Source: an uncultured Nitrospiraceae bacterium (GTDB taxonomy: Bacteria > Hydrogenedentota > Hydrogenedentia > Hydrogenedentales > SLHB01). Taken from it: a stretch of DNA of 64,000 nt. The notes beneath the pieces were generated by a model that was not told the origin of the DNA, made no database searches, and saw only the letters and a program-made list of their open reading frames with translations. Location of the stretch: NCBI GenBank assembly GCA_964587655.1, contig CAZPMT010000001.1, positions 17,459-81,458 on the forward strand, written 5' to 3'. The stretch's first letter is position 1. Each line of letters starts with the position of its first letter. Below, one piece after another: positions 3,872 through 57,719 of the stretch. The position numbers were made by a program, and so were the translations under genes.

Positions 3872-3895
3872 GACAAGGGGTTGCAACCCCTTGTC
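3872..3895. repeat. 24-bp perfect palindrome GACAAGGGGTTGCAACCCCTTGTC (copy 1 of 4)
   Basis: exact palindrome 2 bp after the stop of the upstream URO-D gene and 24 bp before the start of the next; further copies at 15387-15410, 38494-38517 and 49276-49299 (1 mismatch). Confidence 0.85.
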
Positions 3896-9990: not shown

Positions 9991-12900
9991 ATGCCTGCAT
10001 TGTTGGACGAGTATATATTCACAGGCGTAACGGGCAATGCGGCGTGGGCCGCCATCAAGACGGCGTGGGAAGTCGCCACTAAGAAGTCATGGGAACAGAT
10101 CTATCTCGACGCGTTCCCGAAGGCGCTTGCCGCTTCGAAGGAACAACCCAGGAAGTACACTGATGGCGCTGAGCCTTTATTGAATGGCGCCGCCCTGCAG
10201 CGCGCCATCACACGCGCGGCGGCGTCACCGCTTGCCGACCACGCTCTCACCGAGTTGACCGGGGATGCACTCGTGAAACATCTCGGGGCCGTCATGGCCG
10301 AGGAGCGGGTAATCGAGTTCGAGGGGAACAACCTGGCGGAGGAAGGATACGCACAGGTAGTGCGCAACCTCGTCCGCTCTGCCCATGCCGTCTTCTGGGA
10401 CGGTGTCGTGAAGAACGAGACGGCCTTCCGCAATGGCGTGTTCTTGGAGTTCCAGGCGAACCGCGCCCAACTACAAGACATCAAAGACGCCCTCTCTAAG
10501 CTCAGCCTGTTGAAAGCGCTGGACGAGAAACAGGATTACCAGACACGGCTTCTCGAGCGGCAGTCGCTTTCAATGGACGAGATCAAGGGTATTGTCTTGC
10601 GCATTGAAGAGCGCCTCGCCCGGAAATCCTTCGATAGGGAACTGGACGAGGTACTGCCTCCCGCGAAGCGAGAGCCTGCGGGTGCACCGAAGTTCGAAGC
10701 CGACTTCGTTCATGCCTATCCGCTGCAAGCGAACTTCACGGGGCGGAAAACGGAACGCCAGGCGCTTCTCGACGTGAAGTATGACGTTTTCGTCAGCTAT
10801 AGCCATAAGGACAAAGAATGGGTGCACGGACGGCTATTGCCCGGTCTGGAGAGATCGGGACTGAAGGTGTGCCTTGACTTTCGGGACTTTGAGCTGGGCG
10901 TTTCAGCGGCCATCAACATGGAGCGCGCAGTGCAGCAAAGCCGGAAGACCATTCTCGTGCTTACACCGAACTGGGTCGAAAGCGAGTGGACGGAATTTGA
11001 GTCCCTGCTGATCCAGACCAAAGATCCGGCAGGCCGGCGTCAACGCATGTTGCCGGTGATGCTCGAGGAATGCAGCCTGCCTGACCGTTTGAGCATTCTG
11101 ACGTATGCGGACTTCAGAAATGAACAGGATTGGGAGTTCCAACTCGAGCGCGTGTTGCGCACACTCTGTGTTGAAAGGACAACTGCTCCGCCAAGCGATA
11201 AGCTTCCCGTAGTCCAACCCATCATCCAGCCCGATTTTGTCCATCCGTATCCGCTGCAAGCTAACTTCACGGGGCGGAAGAAGGAACGCGGCGCGCTGAC
11301 GACGTGGTTTGTCCAGCGTGAGCAGCCGGTGTATGCCGTGGTCGCCATAGGGGGTATGGGCAAGTCGGCGGTAACGTGGGTGTGGGTGTTGCAGGATCTG
11401 CTGGGGCTGCGCACATTCACGAAGGAGGCGTGCGCGGTCGAGCAGGAGAACCGTCCCGAGGGGGTGTTGTGGTGGAGCTTCTATGACAGCAAGGCACGGT
11501 TTGCGTCGTTCCTAGATCGCGCGCTGGAATACGCGAGCGGCGGGGCCGTGGACCCGCGCGGGATACCGTCGGAACACGACAAGGCGGACAAGCTCATCGA
11601 CCTGCTCGAAAAGCGCGACATCCTCCTGGTGCTCGATGGGTTTGAGCGTGAACTCCGGGCGTATGCGAGTCTGAACGCGCCATACATGGGAGACGGTGAG
11701 GAAAGACACGAGGTCACGGAACAGCGCGTGTGCGTCGACCCGCACGCGGCCTACTTCCTCCAGTGGGCGGCGTCACTGCCGTTGCGGGGCCGGATCCTGA
11801 TGACGACCCGCCTCATGCCGCGCGATCTGGAGGGGAACGACGGCAATCCACTTGACGGCTGTGCGAATAACGAACTGAAAGGCTTCGACCCGGCCGATGT
11901 GGCGGCTTTCTTCCGCGCCGAGGGCATCAAAGGAATGCCATCCGAGATCAAGGCGGCCTGCGCTCCTTACGCATACCATCCACTCGCCGTTCGGCTGTTG
12001 GCCGGGGCGATCATCCGAGACAAACGCAAACCGCGGGACATTGAGACCGCCAAGCGGCACGTGGTCACGGCGGAACTGAAGGGCAAGGACAAGCATCACA
12101 TCCTGCAGGTGGCTTACGATGAATTGGCCGCGAAGCGCCGCAAAATCCTGAGCCAGATCGCCGCGTTCCGCAATCCCATGACCTTCGAAACCTTGGCGGC
12201 CGTGCTGCCCGTGAGCGGCGCACACGAACTGGAAGTCATCCTGGACGAGTTGGTCGAGCGCGGCCTGCTGCTCTGCAACGACGGCCTATACGACCTGCAT
12301 CCCGTCGTGCGGCAATATGCCTACGAACGGCTGACGGACAAGGAAGGCGTCCACACGCGCTTGCGCGACCATTTCAGCGCCGTGCCCATGCCGCAGGACA
12401 CGGAGAAGGTCAAATGCATCGAAAACCTCGACCCCGTGATCGAGCTGTACCACCACACGGTCCGGGCGGGGCAGTTCGACGAGGCCTGTGACGTATTCTA
12501 CGTGCGTCTCCAGGACGTTCTGTACTACCGCTTCGGGGCGTACGATCGCTGCATTGAACTCTTGTGCGCACTGTTCCCGGAGGGAGAGCCTTTGGTCAAA
12601 GACGGCCAGGCCAAGGTACCACGACTGACGAAGGAATCCGACCAAGCCTGGGCGCTGAACGCCCTTGCCTGCTGTTGCAGTGCGTCCGGCCAACCCCGGC
12701 GGGCTTTGCCGCTGTTTGAGCTACAGAACAAGCTCCGGGATGACGCAAAGGACGAGATGAATCTTGCCATTGGCCTGGAAAACTTGGCCTGTATGGCGCA
12801 ACTCCACCTCGGCCAACTGGGTGCTGCCGAAGAGAACCTCCGTCGGAGCATCGCCTTGTCTCGGGAGATTAGGGACGCGCTCGGGGTGGCTGACGCGTGC

Positions 12901-13578
12901 CAGAATTTGGGGCTGTTGCTGGCATGCCTGGGAGGGTTTGGTGAGAGCGAGACAGAATTGGACGCGGCGGTGCGGGGCTTCAAGGAGCAAGAAAAGACGC
13001 AGGGCGAGGGCATCGTTGAGTGCAGCCGCGCCCTGCGGGCCATCATCATGGGAGATGCCCAAGCCGCGTTGGCAGCCGCCCGTCACGCGCTGGAGTTGTG
13101 GCACAAGACGGCAAGAGAGAGATTCCGCTACGAGCGCGACCGCGTGCGGGTCGAGTGGTTGGTAGGCTGGGCGCTGACGGCCCTGGCGGAAGAGCGGCCG
13201 GGGGACGTGGCCAGTCTCCTTGCCGAGGCCGAACAGCATCTCACCGAGGCACTGACCCGTTGCCGGAACATCAACATGGTCGATCACGAGCCGGACATTC
13301 TCCTGGCTTGGGCGCGTTGGCATTTCGCGAAAGGGGACGCGGTTCGCGCGAGCCAGTGGGCTGCGGAGGCCCTATTCATCGCCGACCGGTGCGAGTACCG
13401 GCTGAAGCAGGCCGACATCCACAACTTCCTTGCGCGGCTTGCGCTTGATGCCGGTGACAAGGCCGCAGCACGAAGCGAAGCCGGGATCGCGAAGGAACGC
13501 GCTTGGTGCGACGGCCCACCGCATTGTTACAAACCCGCCCTCGATGAAGCCGAACGCCTGTTGAAAGAGATCGGGTAA
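9991..13578 (+). CDS. TIR-domain / STAND (NB-ARC-like P-loop NTPase) / TPR-repeat protein with ~250-aa unknown N-terminal domain; candidate defense or signalling NTPase
   Basis: TIR: YDVFVSYSHKDKEWVHGRLL...; P-loop AIGGMGKSAVTW, Walker B ILLVLDGFE; C-terminal TPR-like helical repeats; an intragenic direct repeat (10702-10759 / 11233-11290) brackets the TIR. Confidence 0.8.
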   Translation: MPALLDEYIFTGVTGNAAWAAIKTAWEVATKKSWEQIYLDAFPKALAASKEQPRKYTDGAEPLLNGAALQRAITRAAASPLADHALTELTGDALVKHLGAVMAEERVIEFEGNNLAEEGYAQVVRNLVRSAHAVFWDGVVKNETAFRNGVFLEFQANRAQLQDIKDALSKLSLLKALDEKQDYQTRLLERQSLSMDEIKGIVLRIEERLARKSFDRELDEVLPPAKREPAGAPKFEADFVHAYPLQANFTGRKTERQALLDVKYDVFVSYSHKDKEWVHGRLLPGLERSGLKVCLDFRDFELGVSAAINMERAVQQSRKTILVLTPNWVESEWTEFESLLIQTKDPAGRRQRMLPVMLEECSLPDRLSILTYADFRNEQDWEFQLERVLRTLCVERTTAPPSDKLPVVQPIIQPDFVHPYPLQANFTGRKKERGALTTWFVQREQPVYAVVAIGGMGKSAVTWVWVLQDLLGLRTFTKEACAVEQENRPEGVLWWSFYDSKARFASFLDRALEYASGGAVDPRGIPSEHDKADKLIDLLEKRDILLVLDGFERELRAYASLNAPYMGDGEERHEVTEQRVCVDPHAAYFLQWAASLPLRGRILMTTRLMPRDLEGNDGNPLDGCANNELKGFDPADVAAFFRAEGIKGMPSEIKAACAPYAYHPLAVRLLAGAIIRDKRKPRDIETAKRHVVTAELKGKDKHHILQVAYDELAAKRRKILSQIAAFRNPMTFETLAAVLPVSGAHELEVILDELVERGLLLCNDGLYDLHPVVRQYAYERLTDKEGVHTRLRDHFSAVPMPQDTEKVKCIENLDPVIELYHHTVRAGQFDEACDVFYVRLQDVLYYRFGAYDRCIELLCALFPEGEPLVKDGQAKVPRLTKESDQAWALNALACCCSASGQPRRALPLFELQNKLRDDAKDEMNLAIGLENLACMAQLHLGQLGAAEENLRRSIALSREIRDALGVADACQNLGLLLACLGGFGESETELDAAVRGFKEQEKTQGEGIVECSRALRAIIMGDAQAALAAARHALELWHKTARERFRYERDRVRVEWLVGWALTALAEERPGDVASLLAEAEQHLTEALTRCRNINMVDHEPDILLAWARWHFAKGDAVRASQWAAEALFIADRCEYRLKQADIHNFLARLALDAGDKAAARSEAGIAKERAWCDGPPHCYKPALDEAERLLKEIG

Positions 13579-13624
13579 CGCTTCGGCGGCGGACGTTGCC
13601 CTGCCGTAGCGTGCTGAACGCTGG

Positions 13625-13692
13625 TGGCGCGACGTTTCCAACGTCGCGGGGTAGCTGCCAGATCGAACTGCGACGTTGGAAACGTCGCGCCA
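13625..13692. terminator. 23-bp perfect inverted repeat (TGGCGCGACGTTTCCAACGTCGC / loop 22 nt) downstream of the TIR-STAND gene and convergent with the PIN operon; stem-loop, possibly a bidirectional terminator
   Basis: arms 13625-13647 and 13670-13692 are exact reverse complements; no T-run, so a rho-independent terminator is uncertain. Confidence 0.35.
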
Positions 13693-13776
13693 CTGTGAAT
13701 AGTTTGTCAAGTTATTTTGGCGCGCCGCCTAAGCGTCAATGAACGGCGAAAACGGAGCGCGAACGCGGCGTCCTCG

Positions 13777-13970: not shown

Positions 13971-14432
13971 CTAGACGACCTCCTTTGGAGAACGAATCTC
14001 GACTAACGGATACCCTTGTTGAAGGTTGACCGCGTTGAAACCGCGGATCTTGTCGAGATGAACAATGTGCTTGAAGTTCCAACTTACGATCATGTCCACA
14101 CGTTCCACCGACGCGATAGCGACATGGTGCGCGTCATTGCGCGAGGCCCTTCCTACAATGCTCGCTTCAAGATAACCGTCGCGTAATGCCTCCGACTCAA
14201 ACGAGCTTTCCACCAACTCATAGGCGTGATCGGGCAAGTCTGCCAGTAAGGCCTGAATCTCGCGCGGCGCCTTGTCCAGTTCGTCCAAGACAACATCGGA
14301 AATGACAAACACGACCCTGCCTGCTCGAGCCATTTCAAAGAGCGCCGAGCTTTCCGAAGCGAATTTCCCGTCCAAACACCCTCCTACCACCGAGGTGTCT
14401 ATGTAGATGCGCTGTTTTCTCATGTGCCGCAT
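13971..14432 (-). CDS. PIN-domain ribonuclease (VapC-like toxin)
   Basis: RIYIDTSVV N-terminal PIN motif, SWNFKHIV C-terminal motif, conserved acidic residues; paralog at 32364-32843. Confidence 0.75.
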   Translation of the reverse strand: MRHMRKQRIYIDTSVVGGCLDGKFASESSALFEMARAGRVVFVISDVVLDELDKAPREIQALLADLPDHAYELVESSFESEALRDGYLEASIVGRASRNDAHHVAIASVERVDMIVSWNFKHIVHLDKIRGFNAVNLQQGYPLVEIRSPKEVV

Positions 14433-15347: not shown

Positions 15348-15350
15348 GTA

Positions 15351-15372
15351 GGGACGGGTTTGAAACCCGTCC
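15351..15372. promoter_or_regulatory. perfect hairpin GGGACGGGTTTGAAACCCGTCC abutting the amidohydrolase start codon
   Basis: 10-bp stem with 2-nt loop located 4-25 nt upstream of the start at 15347, between palindrome A copy 2 and the gene. Confidence 0.4.
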
Positions 15373-15386
15373 TACGATCTCCTATG

Positions 15387-15410
15387 GACAAGGGGTTGCA
15401 ACCCCTTGTC
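15387..15410. repeat. 24-bp palindrome GACAAGGGGTTGCAACCCCTTGTC (copy 2)
   Basis: exact copy; ~17 bp after the upstream gene stop (15427) and ~40 bp before the downstream start (15347). Confidence 0.85.
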
Positions 15411-39266: not shown

Positions 39267-41258
39267 ATGGCTAAAGAAAGCCAGCCGTCCGTGCTCAATG
39301 GCGAAGAACTCGTCAAACAGGAAGTAATCACTCGAGAGGAACTGGCCAACGCCCACGCGCATGAAGCCGCTACGGGTACACCGTGGTACCGGCAGCTTCT
39401 CCAAACGAAGAAGATGAGCTTCGGCGCGCTCGAGGATATTCTGTTCCGCGAGTTCCATCCGCGCTCACTTCGTGACGAACATGCCCGCCTCGGCCAGACC
39501 CTCGTCAGTATCAAGGCAATCACTCAGAATCAGCTTACCCAAGCGTTGGCGGAACAAAGCCGCAGCGGACGGCTCTTGGGGAACATTCTCCTGGATCTTC
39601 GTCTCATAACGCGCGAGATGATGACGAAGGCCCTCGCCCGGCAGCACGGGATCGAATGTGCCGAATTAAAGAGCATGCCCAGCACCCCGGAAGCTCTCGA
39701 TTGTGTTCCTCGAAACGTGGCGCGCGACAACCTTATGTTGCCGGTCCGTATCGAGGGAGACAAACTAACCGTACTCATCCCCGACCCGCAGGTTCTGGAC
39801 CGTTTGCAGAAGGTCGGTATTCTGTTGGGTAAGCGGATTCATCCCGTCCTTACAACGGTGGAAGATATGGCGGCAGAGATTGCGCTCCGCTACGGAGGAG
39901 GTGTGAAGAGCCGCCCCGTCGAGGCGCCTCGCACGAAACCCGCAGTTCAGCAGATTACCAACGCAGCACAACCGCGACCGCCCAAGACGCCGGCACAGGC
40001 TGAATCGAAACCCCAACCAAAGGTGACCAAAATGGAAGAAACAAAACAAACAGCTTCAGAGAGTCAAGGGAAAGTCGATCTGAAACGTTTTGAGGAAATT
40101 GCGAGGGAAGCATCCGGCGTCCCGGTGATGAAACTTGTAACAACCATTATCGAAGGGGCGGTGAATTCAGGAGCAACGGACATCCACCTTGACCCGCAAG
40201 ACCCTGAAATGCGCGTAAGATACCGTATTGACGGCATTCTTCACGACATAATGAGTATTCCCGCCGAAGCGCAGAACGCGGTGATATCACGCATAAAGAT
40301 CATGAGCGACATGGATATCACCGAGACCCGGCATCCGCAGGACGGTCACATAAGCATGGAGGTGGCTAACCAAGAGTTCGATATCCGCGTCGCCACCCTC
40401 CCTACGTTTCTCGGCGAACGCGTTGTACTTCGCCTGCTTGACCAATCCACCGTGCTTTCCGGCATTAAAGACTTGGGTCTCGAATCGGATGATGAGAAGC
40501 GGCTTCGCAATATCATTGGCCAGCCATATGGAATGGTCCTTGTCACCGGGCCGACTGGGAGCGGTAAGACGACAACACTGTATGCCGCTCTTAATCAGAA
40601 GAACGTCATCACGGACAGTATTGTCACACTCGAGGATCCCATTGAGTATCAGCTCTCAGGCATAAACCAGGTCCAGATTGAATCGGACATTGACGTGACG
40701 TTCGCGACCACCCTGCGGGCAGCGTTACGACAGGATATTGATGTACTTCTTGTCGGTGAAATTCGCGACGTTGATACGGCGCGGATAGCAATTCGTGCTG
40801 CAATGACCGGGCACTTAGTGTTCAGCACGCTTCATACAAATGATGCACCCGAAGCTATCAGTACACTTAGAAACATGGGTATTCCGTCTTACCTAATCGC
40901 CAGTGCTCTTACCGCCGTTGTTGGCCAACGCCTTGTAAGAATGATTTGTCCTCATTGCAGAACGGAGTTTAAGCCCCCAAAGACGCTCCTTAAATCAGTC
41001 GGCTTACCCGAAACGACAAATGCGCTATTTCGAGGTGCAGGTTGTGAAGTTTGCTACCACACCGGATGTAAGGGTAGGACGGGCATATTTGAGATCTTAG
41101 AGGTGACACCCTCAATTCGGCGTATGATAGCAGTGGACGAATCAATAGAGAAGATAGCGCAAGCAGCCAAAGTTAAGACGCTTTCCGATCGATGCCGATT
41201 GAAGCTCAAGGAAGGTGTAGTAGCGCCTGAAGAGTTCTTCCGAACCATTAGAATGTGA
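39267..41258 (+). CDS. GspE/PilB-family type II secretion / type IV pilus assembly ATPase with N-terminal GspE_N domains and C-terminal tetracysteine motif
   Basis: Walker A LVTGPTGSGKTTTLYAAL; Asp box and His box regions; CPHCR...CEVCYHTGC zinc motif. Confidence 0.8.
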   Translation: MAKESQPSVLNGEELVKQEVITREELANAHAHEAATGTPWYRQLLQTKKMSFGALEDILFREFHPRSLRDEHARLGQTLVSIKAITQNQLTQALAEQSRSGRLLGNILLDLRLITREMMTKALARQHGIECAELKSMPSTPEALDCVPRNVARDNLMLPVRIEGDKLTVLIPDPQVLDRLQKVGILLGKRIHPVLTTVEDMAAEIALRYGGGVKSRPVEAPRTKPAVQQITNAAQPRPPKTPAQAESKPQPKVTKMEETKQTASESQGKVDLKRFEEIAREASGVPVMKLVTTIIEGAVNSGATDIHLDPQDPEMRVRYRIDGILHDIMSIPAEAQNAVISRIKIMSDMDITETRHPQDGHISMEVANQEFDIRVATLPTFLGERVVLRLLDQSTVLSGIKDLGLESDDEKRLRNIIGQPYGMVLVTGPTGSGKTTTLYAALNQKNVITDSIVTLEDPIEYQLSGINQVQIESDIDVTFATTLRAALRQDIDVLLVGEIRDVDTARIAIRAAMTGHLVFSTLHTNDAPEAISTLRNMGIPSYLIASALTAVVGQRLVRMICPHCRTEFKPPKTLLKSVGLPETTNALFRGAGCEVCYHTGCKGRTGIFEILEVTPSIRRMIAVDESIEKIAQAAKVKTLSDRCRLKLKEGVVAPEEFFRTIRM

Positions 41259-41259
41259 G

Positions 41260-41933
41260 TTGCTTTATATCTTATCCAAACAGCGGAGTTTGAGGCCTAG
41301 TGTCGTTCTGTTAGTAACCTGTGGAAAACTGGCCTTTTCTTCACTTTGATGGTGCTATCTTACTTGTCGCTACTAAGACGCAAGTTCCTGAAATTATTCA
41401 TGTTATCAAGTTATCAAACAGAAAGAATGGATTTTAGTATATTAACGGAACTCGTTTTACCACAGTAGTTTAACTGACAGTATCTTCTACTAGATGAAGG
41501 TTATATTCTACAGGAGATTATGGTTCCACGGGATGTGAATACATGTTGCAGTTGATTTAAGGAAATCGCCATTTCTCAACAAAAAGAGCCTTGTTGATAA
41601 CTAGAAGAAACAGTATGAAACATAAAGGTACAGCGCTTTCACGTAAATGCTGCTGTCAATATATAATAAAGGAAGCACATATCCACAGCAAAAAATGAAA
41701 AGTGGCGTTAATAAAGGTACATCAAGAGAGATGTAAAGATTGATCTACACAAAAGAGAGAAAACCTGATCAATCATTCAATAATAATCCACAATCTATCT
41801 TTCGAAATCGAAACAGGTTACAATACTTATCCAAAGATTTTCAGACACTACTACTAAGACTACTTGTTTTACATATCGTCATTGATCATAATATGCATCG
41901 CAATCCACACAGGAGAAACGAGGGAGACTTAGA
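41260..41933. other. 670-bp AT-rich non-coding region with six DnaA-box-like 9-mers (TTATCCACA, at most 1 mismatch) immediately upstream of dnaN; candidate oriC
   Basis: boxes at 41272-41280 (TTATCCAAA), 41320-41328 (rc TTTTCCACA), 41679-41687 (ATATCCACA), 41784-41792 (TAATCCACA), 41827-41835 (TTATCCAAA), 41901-41909 (CAATCCACA); GC ~37% vs ~65% for the window. Confidence 0.4.
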
Positions 41934-43040
41934 ATGAAGATACATATTCCACGTCAGGATCTTCTTGACAAGGTAAATCAGGTGAAGACGGTTGTTTCAT
42001 CTAAGTCGGCGCTCCCGATTCTCTCTCACATTCTCATGGAAACACAGGAGAGCGCCGTTCGTCTTTCGGCAACTGATTTGAAAGTGAGTATTGAGTCCGT
42101 TGCTGATTGCTCAGTTGATGAAGCAGGTTCTCTTACGGTTTCTTCTCAGCGCTTAGCGATGATTCTTGCCGAGCTTCCAAATGCTGACATTACGTTGGAA
42201 CTGGCAAAGAACAATGTTGTTACTCTTACGTGTGGAAGAATTAAGACGAAGTTGTTTAGTATGGCGCCGGAGGAATTTCCGCCACTAAGAACATTTGATA
42301 ATATCGAGCCGTTGGTATTATCGCAATCGATGCTTTGTGGTATGTTCGCAAAGACGTCTTTCGCTATATGCTCCGATCAAGCTCGCTATAACTTGACGGG
42401 GATTCTTTTCGAGATTAAAGATGGAAGATTGATTGTTGTAGCGACGGATGGGCGTCGGATGAGTCTTTGTGTGGAAACAGATGGAGTGCCAAAGGGTGTA
42501 AATGTAAAGGTTATTATTCCAGGGAAAATGGTAGCTGAACTTGAACGCCTATTGGGTAGCGATGGTGATGTCTCCGTTTATATCGATGAGTCGCAAACAG
42601 CATTCGCGTTTAATTCAGCGCGCTTGGTCACAGCCCTTATAGAAGGCAACTTTCCTAACTATGAGATGGTGGTTCCAAAAAAGCATGACAAGGAAGTATT
42701 AATAAGTACCGCTGTCTTAACAGAAGCAGTTCGTCGTACGCGGACAATGACGAACGATAAGTTTAACTCGGTGCGATTTGTTCTTGTAAGTGGTTCAATG
42801 ACGTTGAAGGTAGTCACGCCCGAAGTAGGTGAGTACGAGGAAGAAATCCCTGTCGAATATGATGGAGAAAGAGTTGAGATTGCCTTTAACCCTGATTTTG
42901 TTCTCGATATTCTTCGCCATATAGAGACGGAAATGCTCTGTCTTATTCTAAAGGATACGACAAGCCCTGGTGTCGTGAAACCATATGCCGAAGCGCCTCT
43001 TGATTCCTATGTCAATGTAATTATGCCTATTCGGCTGTAA
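41934..43040 (+). CDS. dnaN: DNA polymerase III beta subunit (sliding clamp)
   Basis: MKIHIPRQDLLDKVNQVKTVVSSKSALPILSHILMETQ... three-domain beta-clamp pattern, 368 aa; strong RBS AGGAGAAACGAGGGAG. Confidence 0.85.
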   Translation: MKIHIPRQDLLDKVNQVKTVVSSKSALPILSHILMETQESAVRLSATDLKVSIESVADCSVDEAGSLTVSSQRLAMILAELPNADITLELAKNNVVTLTCGRIKTKLFSMAPEEFPPLRTFDNIEPLVLSQSMLCGMFAKTSFAICSDQARYNLTGILFEIKDGRLIVVATDGRRMSLCVETDGVPKGVNVKVIIPGKMVAELERLLGSDGDVSVYIDESQTAFAFNSARLVTALIEGNFPNYEMVVPKKHDKEVLISTAVLTEAVRRTRTMTNDKFNSVRFVLVSGSMTLKVVTPEVGEYEEEIPVEYDGERVEIAFNPDFVLDILRHIETEMLCLILKDTTSPGVVKPYAEAPLDSYVNVIMPIRL

Positions 43041-43044
43041 CTTA

Positions 43045-44304
43045 TCATGATGATTGATCTGAACTATTGCTGCTTTTCAACATGTTTGCAATTGTAGCGG
43101 CAAATTTTGCTATTATCTTTTCCCGTTCATAGAAATCCGCTTGCTTAAGTGTATTTAGCTGCCATTCCAAGATAGTGTCTGTCTTCTCAGCTATTTCCAT
43201 TAGTAAGACTGACATCTGCTGCGCTGTCTTCCAATCGATACAGGGGCCGAGATTATTATCGCGTATTTCGCAACCAAGAGGACTGTCTGCATCACATACC
43301 GCCAATATGGGAGTACCGGATGTAATTCCCGCAATTATTTTGGAAGGAATGAACGAACTCTTACTTGCACCCTTTTCCGTGATTACAAACAAATCGGTTT
43401 TATGTAGTGCAGCCGCAAACGCTGACTCATCCAAGAAAGGCCCAAATGTAAAGCGTGAATCTTGTACAGCATCAATCCAAGACTCAACCGAGAATGCTTC
43501 AGATCCATTTCCATAAACTGCAAACTCAAACGGCATGGTGCTCTTCTGTAACATCTTACAAAAACAAAGTAGGTCCTGTTTTTCGCCTATATTCCCTGCA
43601 TATAGAAGACGGATAGGTTGATTAGGTGAACGCCCAATCTTAGACGGCAGTTTACGAATCTCCTCCGCCAACGAAGCATTAAGCCAATTCGGCAGATATA
43701 GAATTTGCTGATTTCGCTGGCGAAACTGCTCTAATCGCGTAACCATAGCCGGTGATATTGTGCTCCAGACATCTGCTCGGTTGAATAGAAATCGTTGCAC
43801 TGAATCTAAGATCCCCGGAACAAACTTTCCTGTTGCAATGCCGCTTGCCGCTGCGGCATCTGCCGAAAGATCCTGCACATTAAGCCAGAGCGGCTTACCA
43901 TAAATGAGCTTGTTTATTGCTGCAAAACCCACGGCGCCGACAAGTGGACAATAGGTCATAACCAGATCGAAAGCTCGTCCGCCTGGAAGAGACCTAATCA
44001 ATGACAGAAAGAACGATGCTTCATAGAAAAGCCGTTGAACAAAGGAACCGGGCTTGCTTGGAATGAAGATTCCATAACGTTCGACATGTACGCCCTTTTC
44101 CTCATATCGTTGAACTCTCAACCCATTCTTCCCGCTCTTATCCTTCCATTCCGGATAGTATGGATAGACACAACGAACTGTAACATCGTAGCCGCGTTCG
44201 ACCAGTCCATAACAAAGGTCGCTGAAGATTGCACCTCCCCCGCCCCGATCGGGGCTGAACACATTGACAATAATGAGCAGGCGCGGCTTGTCTCTTGTGA
44301 CCAT
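43045..44304 (-). CDS. glycosyltransferase family 4 protein (WbuB-like); low-GC (~43%)
   Basis: Glyco_trans_4-like N-terminus (LLIIVNVFSPDRGGGG) and GT1-type C-terminal domain. Confidence 0.75.
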   Translation of the reverse strand: MVTRDKPRLLIIVNVFSPDRGGGGAIFSDLCYGLVERGYDVTVRCVYPYYPEWKDKSGKNGLRVQRYEEKGVHVERYGIFIPSKPGSFVQRLFYEASFFLSLIRSLPGGRAFDLVMTYCPLVGAVGFAAINKLIYGKPLWLNVQDLSADAAAASGIATGKFVPGILDSVQRFLFNRADVWSTISPAMVTRLEQFRQRNQQILYLPNWLNASLAEEIRKLPSKIGRSPNQPIRLLYAGNIGEKQDLLCFCKMLQKSTMPFEFAVYGNGSEAFSVESWIDAVQDSRFTFGPFLDESAFAAALHKTDLFVITEKGASKSSFIPSKIIAGITSGTPILAVCDADSPLGCEIRDNNLGPCIDWKTAQQMSVLLMEIAEKTDTILEWQLNTLKQADFYEREKIIAKFAATIANMLKSSNSSDQSS

Positions 44305-49236: not shown

Positions 49237-49275
49237 GGTTACCTCCATTCGGCAAATCGTCAAGATTACTCTATA

Positions 49276-49299
49276 GACAAGGGGTTGCAACTCCTTGTC
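49276..49299. repeat. 24-bp palindrome GACAAGGGGTTGCAACTCCTTGTC (copy 4, one mismatch)
   Basis: 20 bp after the stop of the lipoprotein gene (49319) and ~40 bp before the DapA-family start (49236). Confidence 0.8.
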
Positions 49300-49318
49300 T
49301 TGGTTTCGGGTCTGTGCG

Positions 49319-50582: not shown

Positions 50583-50690
50583 TCACTGGCATCGTGGCCG
50601 CGGCGTCCTCGCCGCGTACTCGTCAGGAGCCGCTTTAAGCGAAGCATGTGCGCCGAAACGCGGCGAGGACGCCGCGGCCACGATGCCAGT
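50583..50690. repeat. 33-bp perfect inverted repeat CACTGGCATCGTGGCCGCGGCGTCCTCGCCGCG with 42-nt loop
   Basis: arms 50583-50615 / 50658-50690; same motif family as 21863-22025. Confidence 0.75.
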
Positions 50691-50938
50691 GAACTTGCGC
50701 AGGGGTTAGCGGATGAAGTAAGGGGGAGAGAAACAGCGGGAGCAGCGTCGGGAATGCTCTATCTTTAGGGGGTTATGACTGCCCCACTCGACGTCCATGT
50801 GAGACGTTATATGAGCTGTTCTCGAAACGCTGCTCCAACTGACAGAGCCATTATACCACATTTTGCCGCTGTCAACGGCGGGACAAAGAAAAAATCTGGC
50901 ACGGCTGCAACCCGTTGGCACAGACTGATGTGGAAGCA

Positions 50939-57005: not shown

Positions 57006-57324
57006 AGGTCCTTATCGCCTACAACATCGCCCTGCTCCAGGTCATGCTCAACCGCGCAGCCGTCTCCATGCGAAACGCCCCCCTTGTCGACGACACCGTA
57101 GCGTCCACCGACGCATACCACATGAAATCGTCCAAACCCAGCGCGCATCTCGAAGCATTCACCAGAATTTCGCGCGAGTACAGGCATTTCGCGACAATGG
57201 TCAAGGCGTCCGAGCCCGTCGAGCCCGACCCGGCGGACTTCTTCAACTACAAAACCCGTACCGCGATCGATACCGACCTTGACCCAGACAACGATCTATT
57301 TCTTCATCTGTGCCACCCCACATC

Positions 57325-57391
57325 GTCATTCCCGCGAAAGCGGGAATCCAGGACCGCACGCACGCTGGATTCCCGCTTTCGCGGGAATGAC
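57325..57391. mobile_element. short copy of the MITE-like element: GTCATTCCCGCGAAAGCGGGAATCCAG inverted repeats separated by 13 bp
   Basis: arms 57325-57351 / 57365-57391 identical to the TIRs of the element at 1078-1224. Confidence 0.5.
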
Positions 57392-57719
57392 GGCGAGGGC
57401 GGGGATGACGACTGGCGCCGGTTTTTCCTTGTCATTATGTCCCTTCCTGCGGCTGCGAACTACTGCAATTTCTTCCTAAGAAAACAAGGTCTTCTTTGTG
57501 TTCTCTGAGTTCTTTGTGGTTGAAATTACACGAATCTGTCCGTTTGGCTGCGGCTATGCCGCGTTGCGTTCTATACATTCCTTCTGTTTGATTCATCGCT
57601 GCGAAACGGAGATGATTGTCGCGGTCTTGACGCGAAGCAACGCGTTGGACATGAGCGAAGGTGGTCCGTGTCGGTGGTGATTGACTTGATTCCTGATTTC
57701 GCAGCGAAAGGACGGGGGC

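What the first reader, a model, noticed from the sequence alone, without database searches (positions are those of the whole stretch)
3872..3895. 24-bp perfect palindrome GACAAGGGGTTGCAACCCCTTGTC recurring at fixed position between co-directional genes
There are four copies: 3872-3895, 15387-15410, 38494-38517 and 49276-49299 (one mismatch). Three of them sit 2-20 bp after a stop codon and 24-40 bp before the next start codon. The flanking genes belong to the same apparent metabolic set (URO-D paralogs, amidohydrolase-2 proteins, DapA-family aldolase). The stem is 9 bp with a TTGCAA loop, the spacing is exact, and the sequence is conserved. This argues for a functional element such as an intercistronic mRNA-processing or stability hairpin, an attenuator, or a palindromic operator defining a small regulon, rather than chance. 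A second perfect hairpin (15351-15372) abuts one downstream start codon.
Basis: seen in the sequence. Interest (0 to 1): 0.55.

Follow-up and report, generated by a model that had tools for sequence, protein, structure and literature searches.

The report
Mobile REP-like palindrome, not an operator
The four 24-bp palindromes are real, but they are copies of a small selfish DNA hairpin found in many bacterial phyla next to a particular single-strand DNA transposase-like enzyme; they are not a control site shared by a set of metabolic genes.

Summary
Observation confirmed. GACAAGGGGTTGCAACCCCTTGTC occurs at 3872, 15387 and 38494 (perfect) and 49276 (one mismatch), against zero expected by chance.

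The regulon/operator and dedicated RNA-element readings are not supported. The 20-nt core occurs in more than 116 places in genomes carrying at least ten phylum-level labels (GC 28-63%). Flanks are not conserved and neighbouring genes are unrelated. Copies are 3-4 fold depleted in long ORFs and rare between divergent genes.

The one recurrent neighbour is a Y1 HUH domain (Pfam Y1_Tnp). Its closest relatives are RayT/REP-associated and IS200/IS605 TnpA enzymes. Of 80 metagenome loci chosen only by homology to that domain, 77 carry CAAGGGG-N6-CCCCTTG (205 copies, about 0.9 expected). The usual position is 5-8 nt after the domain. Stand-alone genes sit in REPtron-like loci.

In relatives of the window organism (probably Hydrogenedentota), the palindrome is present at one orthologous site in a 94% relative. 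It is absent at 80-83% identity: 1 degenerate match in 77 kb against 4 in 64 kb.

Best reading: non-autonomous REP-like hairpins moved in trans by a Y1 enzyme encoded outside the window. Any mRNA effect is secondary.

Atypical features: no GTAG tag, full dyad symmetry, a stem conserved across phyla, and a partner domain often nested in type IIG restriction-modification genes.

The parts
3872..3895 (.). Palindrome copy 1 (perfect 24 bp), between two co-directional URO-D family genes
   Evidence: The identical sequence is on an independent Logan contig, L117. It is absent after the orthologous URO-D stop in relatives at 74-81% identity, L204, L206 and L207.
15387..15410 (.). Palindrome copy 2 (perfect 24 bp), between a 249/312-aa gene and an Amidohydro_2 gene on the minus strand
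   Evidence: It is present at the orthologous site in the 94% relative L198/L199 with a symmetric centre change (TTGCAA to TAGCTA). It is absent in the 81-83% relatives L200, L202 and L203.
38493..38518 (.). Palindrome copy 3 (perfect 26 bp) in a long spacer upstream of a PASTA-domain ORF
49275..49300 (.). Palindrome copy 4 (26 bp, one mismatch), between an unannotated 255-aa gene and a DHDPS/DapA-family gene on the minus strand
15348..15375 (.). Second, unrelated hairpin GTAGGGACGGGTTTGAAACCCGTCCTAC: a GTAG...CTAC 'double-foot' REP-like hairpin
   Evidence: Single copy in the window. It is a clean indel, absent from the 94% relative (alignment A2). Its form matches the GT[AG]G-tagged and 'double foot' REPs described in PMC6006769 and PMC8266576.

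Best explanation
The four palindromes are copies of a REP-like, non-autonomous mobile DNA hairpin. The family consensus is nGAACAAGGGG-N6-CCCCTTGTTCn; this genome carries the GACAAGGGGTTGCAACCCCTTGTC variant.

Inferred mechanism. On single-stranded DNA, for example the lagging-strand template, the element folds into a hairpin with a 10-bp stem and a 4-nt loop. A Y1 HUH endonuclease/transposase of a small RayT/IS200-like clade recognises this hairpin. The enzyme is encoded elsewhere in the genome, or was formerly present. It cuts and rejoins single-stranded DNA beside the hairpin, so copies spread in trans. Copies persist where they do little harm, chiefly just downstream of stop codons and inside operon spacers.

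Shown here: the family exists across phyla; it is tightly and reciprocally linked to that Y1 domain; copies avoid coding sequence and divergent spacers; and the window copies are lineage-specific insertions.

Inferred, not shown: that a Y1 enzyme actually cleaves this hairpin; that the window genome encodes one; and any effect of the hairpin on the flanking mRNAs. Such an effect, whether 3' end protection, partial termination or translational coupling, would be a side consequence.
For: 1. The copies are not chance: 4 found against 0 expected.

The records carry labels from Bacteroidota (Ignavibacteria, Kapaibacteria, Chlorobi, Balneolales, Bacteroidia), Syntrophia/Smithella, Trueperaceae, Spirochaetota, Nitrospirota, Patescibacteria, Gastranaerophilales, Chloroflexota and Myxococcota, at GC 0.28-0.63.

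3. Conservation stops about 13-14 nt from the centre. The two positions just outside the consensus covary (paired in 60% and 50% of copies, against 32% and 29% expected).

4. Neighbouring proteins form no shared family, with one exception: a Y1_Tnp domain in 8 of 116 loci, with the palindrome 5-130 nt 3' of it in 7 of them (5' of it in L049).

5. Reciprocal test. Of 80 metagenome loci selected only by Y1-domain homology, 77 carry CAAGGGG-N6-CCCCTTG. That is 205 copies in 474 kb, against about 0.9 expected. In 61 loci a copy is within 400 nt of the domain. The typical position is 5-8 nt after the ...NRxKHxLP end, often with a second copy upstream.

6. REPtron-like stand-alone loci exist. In Trueperaceae L243 the Y1 gene sits between nuoD and nuoE and is bracketed by palindromes, with a solo copy between nuoF and nuoG. 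In KSB1 L244 the Y1 gene is flanked by arrays of 9 or more copies.

7. Domain identity. Pfam PF01797 matches at E 1e-12 to 1e-14. The best NCBIfam match is REP-associated tyrosine transposase. The nearest solved structures are IS200/IS605 TnpA. The HUH histidines and the Tyr are invariant.

8. Gene-boundary bias typical of REPs. A long ORF (150 codons or more) spans 29% of copies against 82% of random positions. Spacer classes are co-directional 52, convergent 20 and divergent 6, against a background of 430/102/98.

9. Lineage-specific presence. A copy is present in the 94% relative and absent from both tested orthologous sites at 80-83% identity. There is 1 degenerate match in 77 kb of relatives, against 4 copies in 64 kb of the window.
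Against: - No Y1 domain is encoded in the 64-kb window (tblastn E > 7). Its presence in this genome could not be tested.
- The element lacks the GT[AG]G tetranucleotide that defines canonical REPs and that TnpA_REP requires (PMC8266576).
- It is a perfect dyad, so it has no REP/iREP strand asymmetry.
- The self-complementary centre is not explained by a hairpin model.
- The genome-wide copy number in this organism is unknown.
- The Y1 domains score below NCBIfam's curated cut-offs for both RayT and IS200.
- No biochemical evidence exists for this clade.
Confidence: 0.8

Rival explanations
1. Intercistronic RNA hairpin. The element is selected in this genome for what it does in the polycistronic transcript: a 3'-exonuclease barrier, differential mRNA stability, a processing site, or modulation of translational coupling.
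For: Three copies lie inside apparent operons, 1-19 nt after a stop codon. The RNA hairpin is stable and dominates the predicted local fold: -23 kcal/mol for the 66-nt context of copy 1, z = -4.4. In the 94% relative the stem is intact while the 16-nt flank has 3 substitutions and an indel. E. coli REPs are reported to act as local regulators in 3' UTRs (bioRxiv 10.64898/2026.03.23.713779, abstract listed).
Against: At both orthologous sites examined (one of them the same conserved gene pair) relatives at 80-83% identity lack it. The identical sequence is found in unrelated contexts across phyla, inside ORFs and in tandem or nested arrays. This reading does not explain the link to the Y1 enzyme. 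At most it is an exapted side effect.
Confidence: 0.12
2. Palindromic operator of a dimeric transcription factor that defines a small regulon (URO-D, amidohydrolase-2 and DapA-like genes).
For: The 24-bp dyad symmetry extends through the centre, which suits duplex recognition by a symmetric dimer better than it suits a hairpin. The flanking genes in the window are enzymes of plausibly related catabolism. A sigma-54 activator is encoded at 1271-2677, upstream of the URO-D pair.
Against: Across 116 loci the neighbours share no family and no regulator. Copies sit after stop codons rather than in promoter regions, and divergent spacers are under-represented. Copy 3 is next to a PASTA/FGE-sulfatase gene, not to the metabolic set. 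Orthologous operons in relatives lack the site. The only recurrent partner is a single-strand DNA transposase-like domain.
Confidence: 0.03
3. Minimal MITE. Two abutted terminal inverted repeats of a DDE-type insertion sequence, or an excision or circle-junction footprint, moved by a classical transposase.
For: The element is a perfect inverted repeat with no internal sequence. Half-palindromes are stacked around full copies in some loci (L071, L095, L081, L102), which suggests breakage and joining at the centre. Many copies are flanked by TA...TA-like bases.
Against: No DDE transposase recurs near the copies. No consistent target-site duplication is seen. The strong reciprocal association is with a Y1 HUH domain, which acts on single-stranded hairpins.
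Confidence: 0.05

Closest known systems
REP / REPtron systems: repetitive extragenic palindromes with TnpA_REP (RAYT), especially the group 3 'perfect palindrome' REPs and the subclass 2.4 / group 4 RAYTs
   Same: Both are short (24-28 nt) G+C-rich hairpins, multi-copy, extragenic and biased to the 3' side of genes. The cognate gene is a Y1 HUH protein flanked by copies or arrays of the hairpin (L243, L244). Hairpins also occur in frame inside the Y1 gene and inside other genes, as reported for subclass 2.4 (PMC6006769). The distribution across phyla is patchy, as for group 4 (PMC5581495).
   Different: There is no GT[AG]G tag at the hairpin foot. The element is fully dyad-symmetric, including the loop, so both strands give the same hairpin. 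The stem sequence CAAGGGG/CCCCTTG is conserved across phyla, whereas REPs are normally species- or genus-specific. The Y1 signature (DHVH ... WAQK[YF] ... YIxxNRxKH, with 63 aa between HUH and Y) matches none of the published subclass signatures in Table 1 of PMC6006769. Scores are below the NCBIfam RayT cut-off. The domain is often nested in a type IIG R-M enzyme.
IS200/IS605 family (TnpA Y1 transposase; IS608, ISDra2)
   Same: The nearest solved structures to the Y1 domain are 2EC2, 2XM3 and 2VJV. The enzyme gene is bracketed by hairpins. Single-strand 'peel and paste' chemistry is the natural model. Horizontal spread is patchy.
   Different: The left and right hairpins are the same perfect palindrome, rather than distinct imperfect LE/RE structures with guide tetranucleotides. 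The dispersed copies are bare hairpins without element ends. No tnpB or iscB cargo was seen. The score is below the NCBIfam IS200 cut-off.
Rickettsia palindromic elements and other in-frame palindromic insertions
   Same: Copies can sit in frame inside protein-coding genes without breaking them. The palindrome has no stop codon in any frame and its length is a multiple of three. It is translated as NKGLQPLV in the R-M enzymes and lies within a T9SS sorting-domain coding sequence (L036/L037).
   Different: This element is much shorter (24-28 bp against about 100-150 bp). It has a known candidate enzyme partner and is found in many phyla.

Membership tests
REP / REPtron (RAYT-mobilised repetitive extragenic palindrome) | Short (20-40 nt) palindromic unit able to form a stable single-strand hairpin | tested here: met
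   10-bp stem and 4-nt loop. DNA fold -9.9 kcal/mol, z = -4.4. The RNA fold dominates the local context.
REP / REPtron (RAYT-mobilised repetitive extragenic palindrome) | Many dispersed copies per genome, mostly extragenic and biased to the 3' side of genes | tested here: inconclusive
   The window holds 4 copies in 64 kb. The genome-wide count for this organism is not available. Across 105 instances in other genomes, a long ORF (150 codons or more) spans 29% of copies against 82% of random positions, and divergent spacers are under-represented. Several copies per genome are seen in Trueperaceae, Smithella, Chloroherpetonaceae and Balneola.
REP / REPtron (RAYT-mobilised repetitive extragenic palindrome) | Conserved GT[AG]G tetranucleotide at or near the 5' foot of the hairpin | tested here: not met
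   The flank consensus is n-G/A-A-A then CAAGGGG, with no GTAG. The requirement for GTAG is documented in PMC8266576 and PMC6006769. The separate hairpin at 15348-15375 does carry GTAG...CTAC.
REP / REPtron (RAYT-mobilised repetitive extragenic palindrome) | Cognate Y1 HUH gene flanked by copies of the same hairpin (REPtron arrangement) | tested here: met
   Met in other genomes: 77 of 80 Y1-selected loci, plus L243 and L244. No Y1 gene is present in the window itself, and the rest of this genome could not be searched.
REP / REPtron (RAYT-mobilised repetitive extragenic palindrome) | Strand-specific recognition and cleavage of the single-stranded hairpin by the Y1 enzyme | not testable with these tools
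   This needs purified protein and oligonucleotide cleavage assays. The perfect dyad symmetry means both strands present the same hairpin.
Y1 HUH transposase superfamily (Pfam PF01797), for the partner domain | HUH metal-binding motif and a single catalytic Tyr in the conserved order, with a score above the Pfam gathering threshold | tested here: met
   48-53 bits against a cut-off of 23. D-H-V/I-H and Y are invariant in alignments A1 and A3. The domain aligns to the HUH and Y regions of 2EC2 and 2XM3.
NCBIfam NF047646 REP-associated tyrosine transposase / NF033573 IS200 transposase | Score at or above the curated equivalog cut-off | tested here: not met
   48-55 bits against a cut-off of 80 for RayT. 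36-44 bits against a cut-off of 55 for IS200.
IS200/IS605 insertion sequence | Distinct subterminal LE and RE imperfect hairpins with guide and cleavage tetranucleotides that delimit a conserved element | tested here: not met
   The same perfect palindrome is found on both sides of the gene. There is no conserved sequence beyond about 14 nt from the centre.
Intrinsic (Rho-independent) terminator | G+C-rich hairpin followed directly by a U-tract | tested here: not met
   Only copy 1 passes a lax 5-of-8 T test. Copies 2 and 4 do not.
Transcription-factor operator / regulon | Site recurs upstream of functionally linked genes and is conserved at orthologous promoters, with a co-occurring regulator | tested here: not met
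   Neighbouring genes are unrelated. The position is after stop codons. The site is absent at orthologous positions in relatives.
Rfam RNA families | Match to any curated covariance model at its gathering score | tested here: not met
   No match in the whole window.

The most novel reading that the evidence does not exclude
The palindrome and its Y1 domain form a previously undescribed, horizontally spreading system that differs from both REP/RAYT and IS200/IS605. It would be a tag-less, fully dyad-symmetric hairpin whose stem is conserved across at least ten phylum-level labels. Its centre would be kept self-complementary by arm-to-arm templating or by breakage and joining at the centre. Its HUH enzyme would usually be a domain nested, in frame, inside type IIG (MmeI/Eco57I-like) restriction-modification proteins. 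That arrangement would imply a functional coupling between restriction-modification and single-strand hairpin processing, rather than mere insertion.
Probability: 0.25. Interest if true: 0.8.

Novelty: new variant of a known kind. Interest (0 to 1): 0.6.

Why it matters
For annotating this genome, the palindromes should be marked as REP-like mobile repeats. They should not be used to infer a regulon that links the URO-D, amidohydrolase and DapA-like genes.

More broadly, REP/RAYT systems are regarded as lineage-specific and mostly vertically inherited, with a GTAG-tagged hairpin. Here one hairpin stem is shared by Deinococcota, Bacteroidota, Desulfobacterota, Spirochaetota, Hydrogenedentota-like and other genomes. 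It is paired with a small distinct Y1 clade: 166 clusters at E <= 1e-30 among 1.84 billion representatives.

More than a third of the best-scoring members of that clade are embedded in larger proteins, those examined being type IIG restriction-modification enzymes. This offers a tractable case for three questions: how HUH enzymes recognise an untagged symmetric hairpin, how such elements cross phyla, and whether an R-M enzyme has recruited (or been colonised by) a single-strand DNA nuclease domain.

Tried and rejected
- Rfam at gathering scores over the whole window gave no match.
- A full-text literature search for the core sequence gave no paper.
- BLAST against phages gave only weak partial matches. 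BLAST against plasmids gave none.
- The ARAGORN tRNA-Gly at 13604-13696 might have pointed to an integration site. It turned out to be a false call on an inverted-repeat doublet.
- Attempt to find the window genome: the URO-D protein is recorded only on a 3.4-kb Logan contig. The genome-wide copy number and the presence of a Y1 gene therefore could not be determined.
- Integron attC, CRISPR repeat, parS/dif-type sites, protelomerase sites and sequencing-adapter artefact were considered from memory. They were dropped for these reasons: the flanks are unconserved; copies are solitary; there is no associated integrase or cas gene; and the sequence occurs in independent assemblies, both long-read and short-read.
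- The search for a shared neighbouring protein other than Y1 found none; clusters of 3 loci or fewer were synteny between close relatives.
- Assignment of the Y1 clade to a published subclass (1.2 or 2.4 of PMC6006769) stayed ambiguous, because the motifs only partly match.
It was repeated with database proteins.

Full report
**1. The observation**

A search for GACAAGGGGTTGCAACCCCTTGTC with up to three mismatches finds exactly the four reported sites. Copies at 3872, 15387 and 38494 are perfect, and the copy at 49276 has one mismatch. None is expected in dinucleotide-preserving shuffles. These are the only perfect palindromes of 24 bp or more in the window. Beyond the palindrome, the flanks of the four copies share nothing.

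Pfam confirms the neighbouring genes: two URO-D family genes; an Amidohydro_2 gene preceded by a 249/312-aa gene; and a DHDPS/DapA-family gene preceded by an unannotated 255-aa gene. Copy 3 lies upstream of a PASTA-domain ORF that precedes a very large PASTA/BACON/FGE-sulfatase gene.

Distances from the upstream stop codon are 1, 16 and 19 nt. Distances to the next start codon are 24, 51 (or 39) and 39 nt. The spacing is therefore similar between copies, not exact. The predicted hairpin has a 10-bp stem and a 4-nt loop, in RNA and in DNA.

The rest of the window is a mixed neighbourhood: GDPD, a sigma-54 activator, Gfo/Idh/MocA, PP2C, GH32, a TIR-TPR protein, PBP1A, polysaccharide genes, T2SSE, dnaN and glycosyltransferases. 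The named homologues closest to its PBP1A are from Candidatus Hydrogenedentes/Hydrogenedentota, at 60-65% identity.

**2. The element is not confined to this genome**

By the labels on the records, the counts are:
- Ignavibacteria, Kapaibacteria and Chlorobi: 24
- Smithella, Syntrophaceae and records labelled Deltaproteobacteria: 23
- Trueperaceae: 15
- Bacteroidia: 13
- Balneolales: 8
- Spirochaetota: 6
- Nitrospirota: 4
- Single or double records from Patescibacteria, Gastranaerophilales, Chloroflexota, Myxococcota and others

Locus GC ranges from 0.28 to 0.63. Several genomes hold many copies. The core also occurs in 35 IMG/VR stretches, and in one examined (a Smithella prophage-like contig) the copies bracket a single 426-aa ORF, 1.7 kb apart. 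It was not found in plasmids.

Over 121 instances the consensus is nGAACAAGGGGTTGCAACCCCTTGTTCn. Sequence conservation ends about 13-14 nt from the centre. The next two positions outward are variable but covary: they are complementary in 60% and 50% of copies, against 32% and 29% expected. The window carries the less common GA...TC variant.

**3. What travels with it**

All-against-all comparison of ORFs within 2.5 kb of the instances found no shared neighbour family, with one exception. That exception is a group of large ORFs in which the palindrome is translated as NKGLQPLV.

These ORFs are Eco57I/MmeI-like type IIG restriction-modification proteins. They carry a roughly 130-aa Pfam Y1_Tnp (IS200-like HUH transposase) domain, in frame, between the 'EFPxVF' segment and the 'GGFDVVIGNPPY' methyltransferase motif. 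In 7 of the 8 loci the palindrome sits 5-130 nt after the domain; in L049 it lies upstream.

NCBIfam ranks the domain closest to REP-associated tyrosine transposase, then to IS200 transposase. Both scores are below the curated cut-offs. The nearest solved structures are IS200/IS605 TnpA proteins. The HUH histidines and the tyrosine are invariant.

*Reciprocal test.* Eighty metagenome loci were fetched only by homology to the Y1 domain.
- 48 hold the TTGCAA-centred core with three mismatches or fewer.
- With the centre left free (CAAGGGG-N6-CCCCTTG, at most one mismatch per arm), 77 of 80 hold it.
- That amounts to 205 copies in 474 kb, against about 0.9 expected by chance.
- In 61 loci a copy is within 400 nt of the domain.
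- Most often the copy is 5-8 nt after the conserved ...NRxKHxLP end, and often a second copy lies 12-130 nt upstream.

*Other forms of the domain.* Database homologues include many stand-alone proteins of 150-230 aa, which JGI labels 'REP element-mobilizing transposase RayT'. Two were inspected in NCBI MAGs:
- In a Trueperaceae genome, the Y1 gene is inserted between nuoD and nuoE. It is bracketed by palindromes, and another solo copy lies between nuoF and nuoG.
- In a KSB1 genome, the Y1 gene is flanked on both sides by arrays of nine or more copies at about 50-nt spacing.

This is the REPtron arrangement described for TnpA_REP (PMC6006769; PMC8266576).

The clade is small and well separated: 166 clusters at E <= 1e-30 and 359 at E <= 1e-10 among 1.84 billion representatives. 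Fifty-five of the best 150 are longer than 400 aa, that is, nested in larger proteins.

**4. Placement relative to genes**

A stop-to-stop ORF of 150 codons or more spans 29% of palindromes, against 82% of random positions in the same loci. With a crude greedy gene call, palindromes fall in 52 co-directional, 20 convergent and 6 divergent spacers. The background is 430, 102 and 98.

Distances from the upstream stop range from 0 to several hundred nt, with a median near 50. The pattern is therefore 'after genes, not in promoters', as for REPs, and not a fixed register. A minority of copies really are inside ORFs and in frame. Examples are the R-M genes, the Y1 genes themselves, and a T9SS sorting domain in L036/L037. 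This is possible because the palindrome has no stop codon in any frame and its length is a multiple of three.

**5. Orthologous sites in relatives of the window organism**

The gene order PBP1A, 249-aa gene, Amidohydro_2 is conserved in metagenome contigs whose PBP1A is 94%, 83%, 82% and 81% identical to the window's.
- The 94% relative has the palindrome at the same place. Its centre is changed symmetrically (TTGCAA to TAGCTA), while the 16-nt flank has three substitutions and a 3-nt indel. It lacks the second hairpin, which is a clean indel (alignment A2).
- The 81-83% relatives have unrelated spacer sequence and no palindrome.

Downstream of the URO-D gene, relatives at 74-81% identity also lack it. 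One of them has a flavodoxin-like gene in that position. In total there is one degenerate match in 77 kb of these relatives, against four copies in the 64-kb window. The copies are thus recent, lineage-specific acquisitions and not ancestral regulatory sites.

**6. Interpretation**

The evidence fits a REP-like non-autonomous hairpin spread in trans by a Y1 HUH enzyme. The chemistry is inferred from established knowledge of IS200/IS605 TnpA and E. coli TnpA_REP: both bind folded single-stranded hairpins and cut beside them (PMC8266576).

The operator/regulon reading fails on neighbour diversity, on position, and on absence from orthologous operons. The terminator reading fails for two of three copies. 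An effect on the polycistronic mRNA is plausible as a by-product, because the hairpin is stable and copy 1 begins one nucleotide after a stop codon. It cannot be the reason the sequence exists in this form in so many unrelated contexts.

**7. How it differs from known REPs**

- It has no GT[AG]G tag.
- The stem is conserved across phyla, and the centre hexamer changes with the Y1 lineage.
- The centre is itself usually self-complementary. TTGCAA, ATTAAT, GCATGC, CTTAAG, TTTAAA, TAGCTA and similar hexamers make up 55 of about 100 copies that do not have TTGCAA, against 1/64 by chance. Hairpin stability cannot select for this.
- Half-palindromes are stacked around full copies in several loci.
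- The symmetric double change in the 94% relative is a further sign.

Together these features hint at arm-to-arm templating or at breakage and joining at the centre. This remains unexplained.

The palindrome-encoded peptide NKGLQPLV is part of the C-terminal tail of most stand-alone Y1 proteins. It persists in degenerate form where the DNA symmetry has decayed.

The Y1 motif signature (DHVH, WAQK[YF], YIxxNRxKH, with 63 aa between HUH and Y) matches none of the subclass signatures tabulated in PMC6006769. It shares two traits with subclass 2.4 / group 4: in-frame hairpin insertions and a multi-phylum spread. I found no paper describing this palindrome or a Y1 domain nested in type IIG R-M enzymes. 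The searchable library is incomplete, so prior description cannot be excluded.

**8. Verdict**

In the window, this is an ordinary consequence of a mobile REP-like repeat. The family it belongs to is an atypical and apparently undescribed variant of the REP/RAYT theme. Its cross-phylum reach and its partnership with restriction-modification genes deserve follow-up.

Noticed in passing
L031:239-3976, L081:161-4276, and about 60 of loci L118-L197: A Y1_Tnp (HUH) domain is nested in frame inside roughly 1200-aa Eco57I/MmeI-like type IIG restriction-modification ORFs. It lies between the 'EFPxVF' segment and the 'GGFDVVIGNPPY' motif. Palindromes are translated within the same ORF. I found no description of this in the searchable literature.
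   Followed up: partly
window 15348-15375: GTAGGGACGGGTTTGAAACCCGTCCTAC is a GTAG...CTAC 'double-foot' hairpin of the canonical REP type. It is a single copy in the window and is absent, as a clean indel, from the 94% relative. It is a second, unrelated mobile hairpin next to palindrome copy 2.
   Followed up: partly
window 13604-13696: ARAGORN calls a 93-nt tRNA-Gly(tcc) here, but Rfam finds no tRNA. The sequence is a REPIN-like doublet of two inverted, internally palindromic 24-nt units (13624-13647 and 13670-13693).
   Followed up: yes
window 50583-50692 and 57317-57399: Two further long inverted-repeat doublets. The first has 35-nt arms, 100% complementary, 40 nt apart. The second has 35-nt arms, 91% complementary, 13 nt apart. 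Each arm contains its own small hairpin, so both are REPIN-like. This genome appears to carry several families of palindromic repeats.
   Followed up: no
window 40001-44000: A low-GC island (0.445 against about 0.60 elsewhere) covers the end of a T2SSE/PilB-like gene, dnaN (41934-43040) and part of a glycosyltransferase gene. No dnaA lies next to dnaN.
   Followed up: no
L243:5321-6100 (Trueperaceae, JBOFGY010000091.1): A stand-alone Y1 gene with flanking palindromes is inserted inside the nuo operon, between nuoD and nuoE. One palindrome is translated near its N-terminus (QNKGLQPLV).
   Followed up: partly
L244:5840-6900 (KSB1, JAFGSB010000070.1): BIME-like arrays of nine or more palindromes at about 50-nt spacing lie on both sides of a stand-alone Y1 gene. 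Several different centre hexamers (TGGCCA, CAGTTG, CTGCAG, GTACAA) occur within one array.
   Followed up: partly
L081:1250-2830; L102:2236-2800; L071:655-694; L095:345-383: Nested or stacked structures are present. Repeated left halves precede, and repeated right halves follow, a full palindrome. These are read through in frame as LNKGLQMSD... repeats in L081.
   Followed up: no
L036:1600-1700 and L037:3215-3315: The palindrome lies inside the coding sequence of a T9SS C-terminal sorting domain (...GLNKGLQPLVPEQEIKIYNLLG...) in two paralogues. The MAG is labelled Hyphomicrobiales, but its GC of 0.32-0.36 makes a mis-binned Bacteroidota contig likely.
   Followed up: no
L200:12945-13050 and L203:13058-13178: The orthologous spacer in the 82-83% relatives holds tandem heptamer repeats, (GTGCGAA)n followed by (CCCGAAA)n, in place of the palindrome.
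   Followed up: no
window 9991-13578: A 1195-aa TIR-domain and TPR protein, which may be a defence-related gene. It is followed by the inverted-repeat doublet and by a PIN-domain gene (13971-14432).
   Followed up: no
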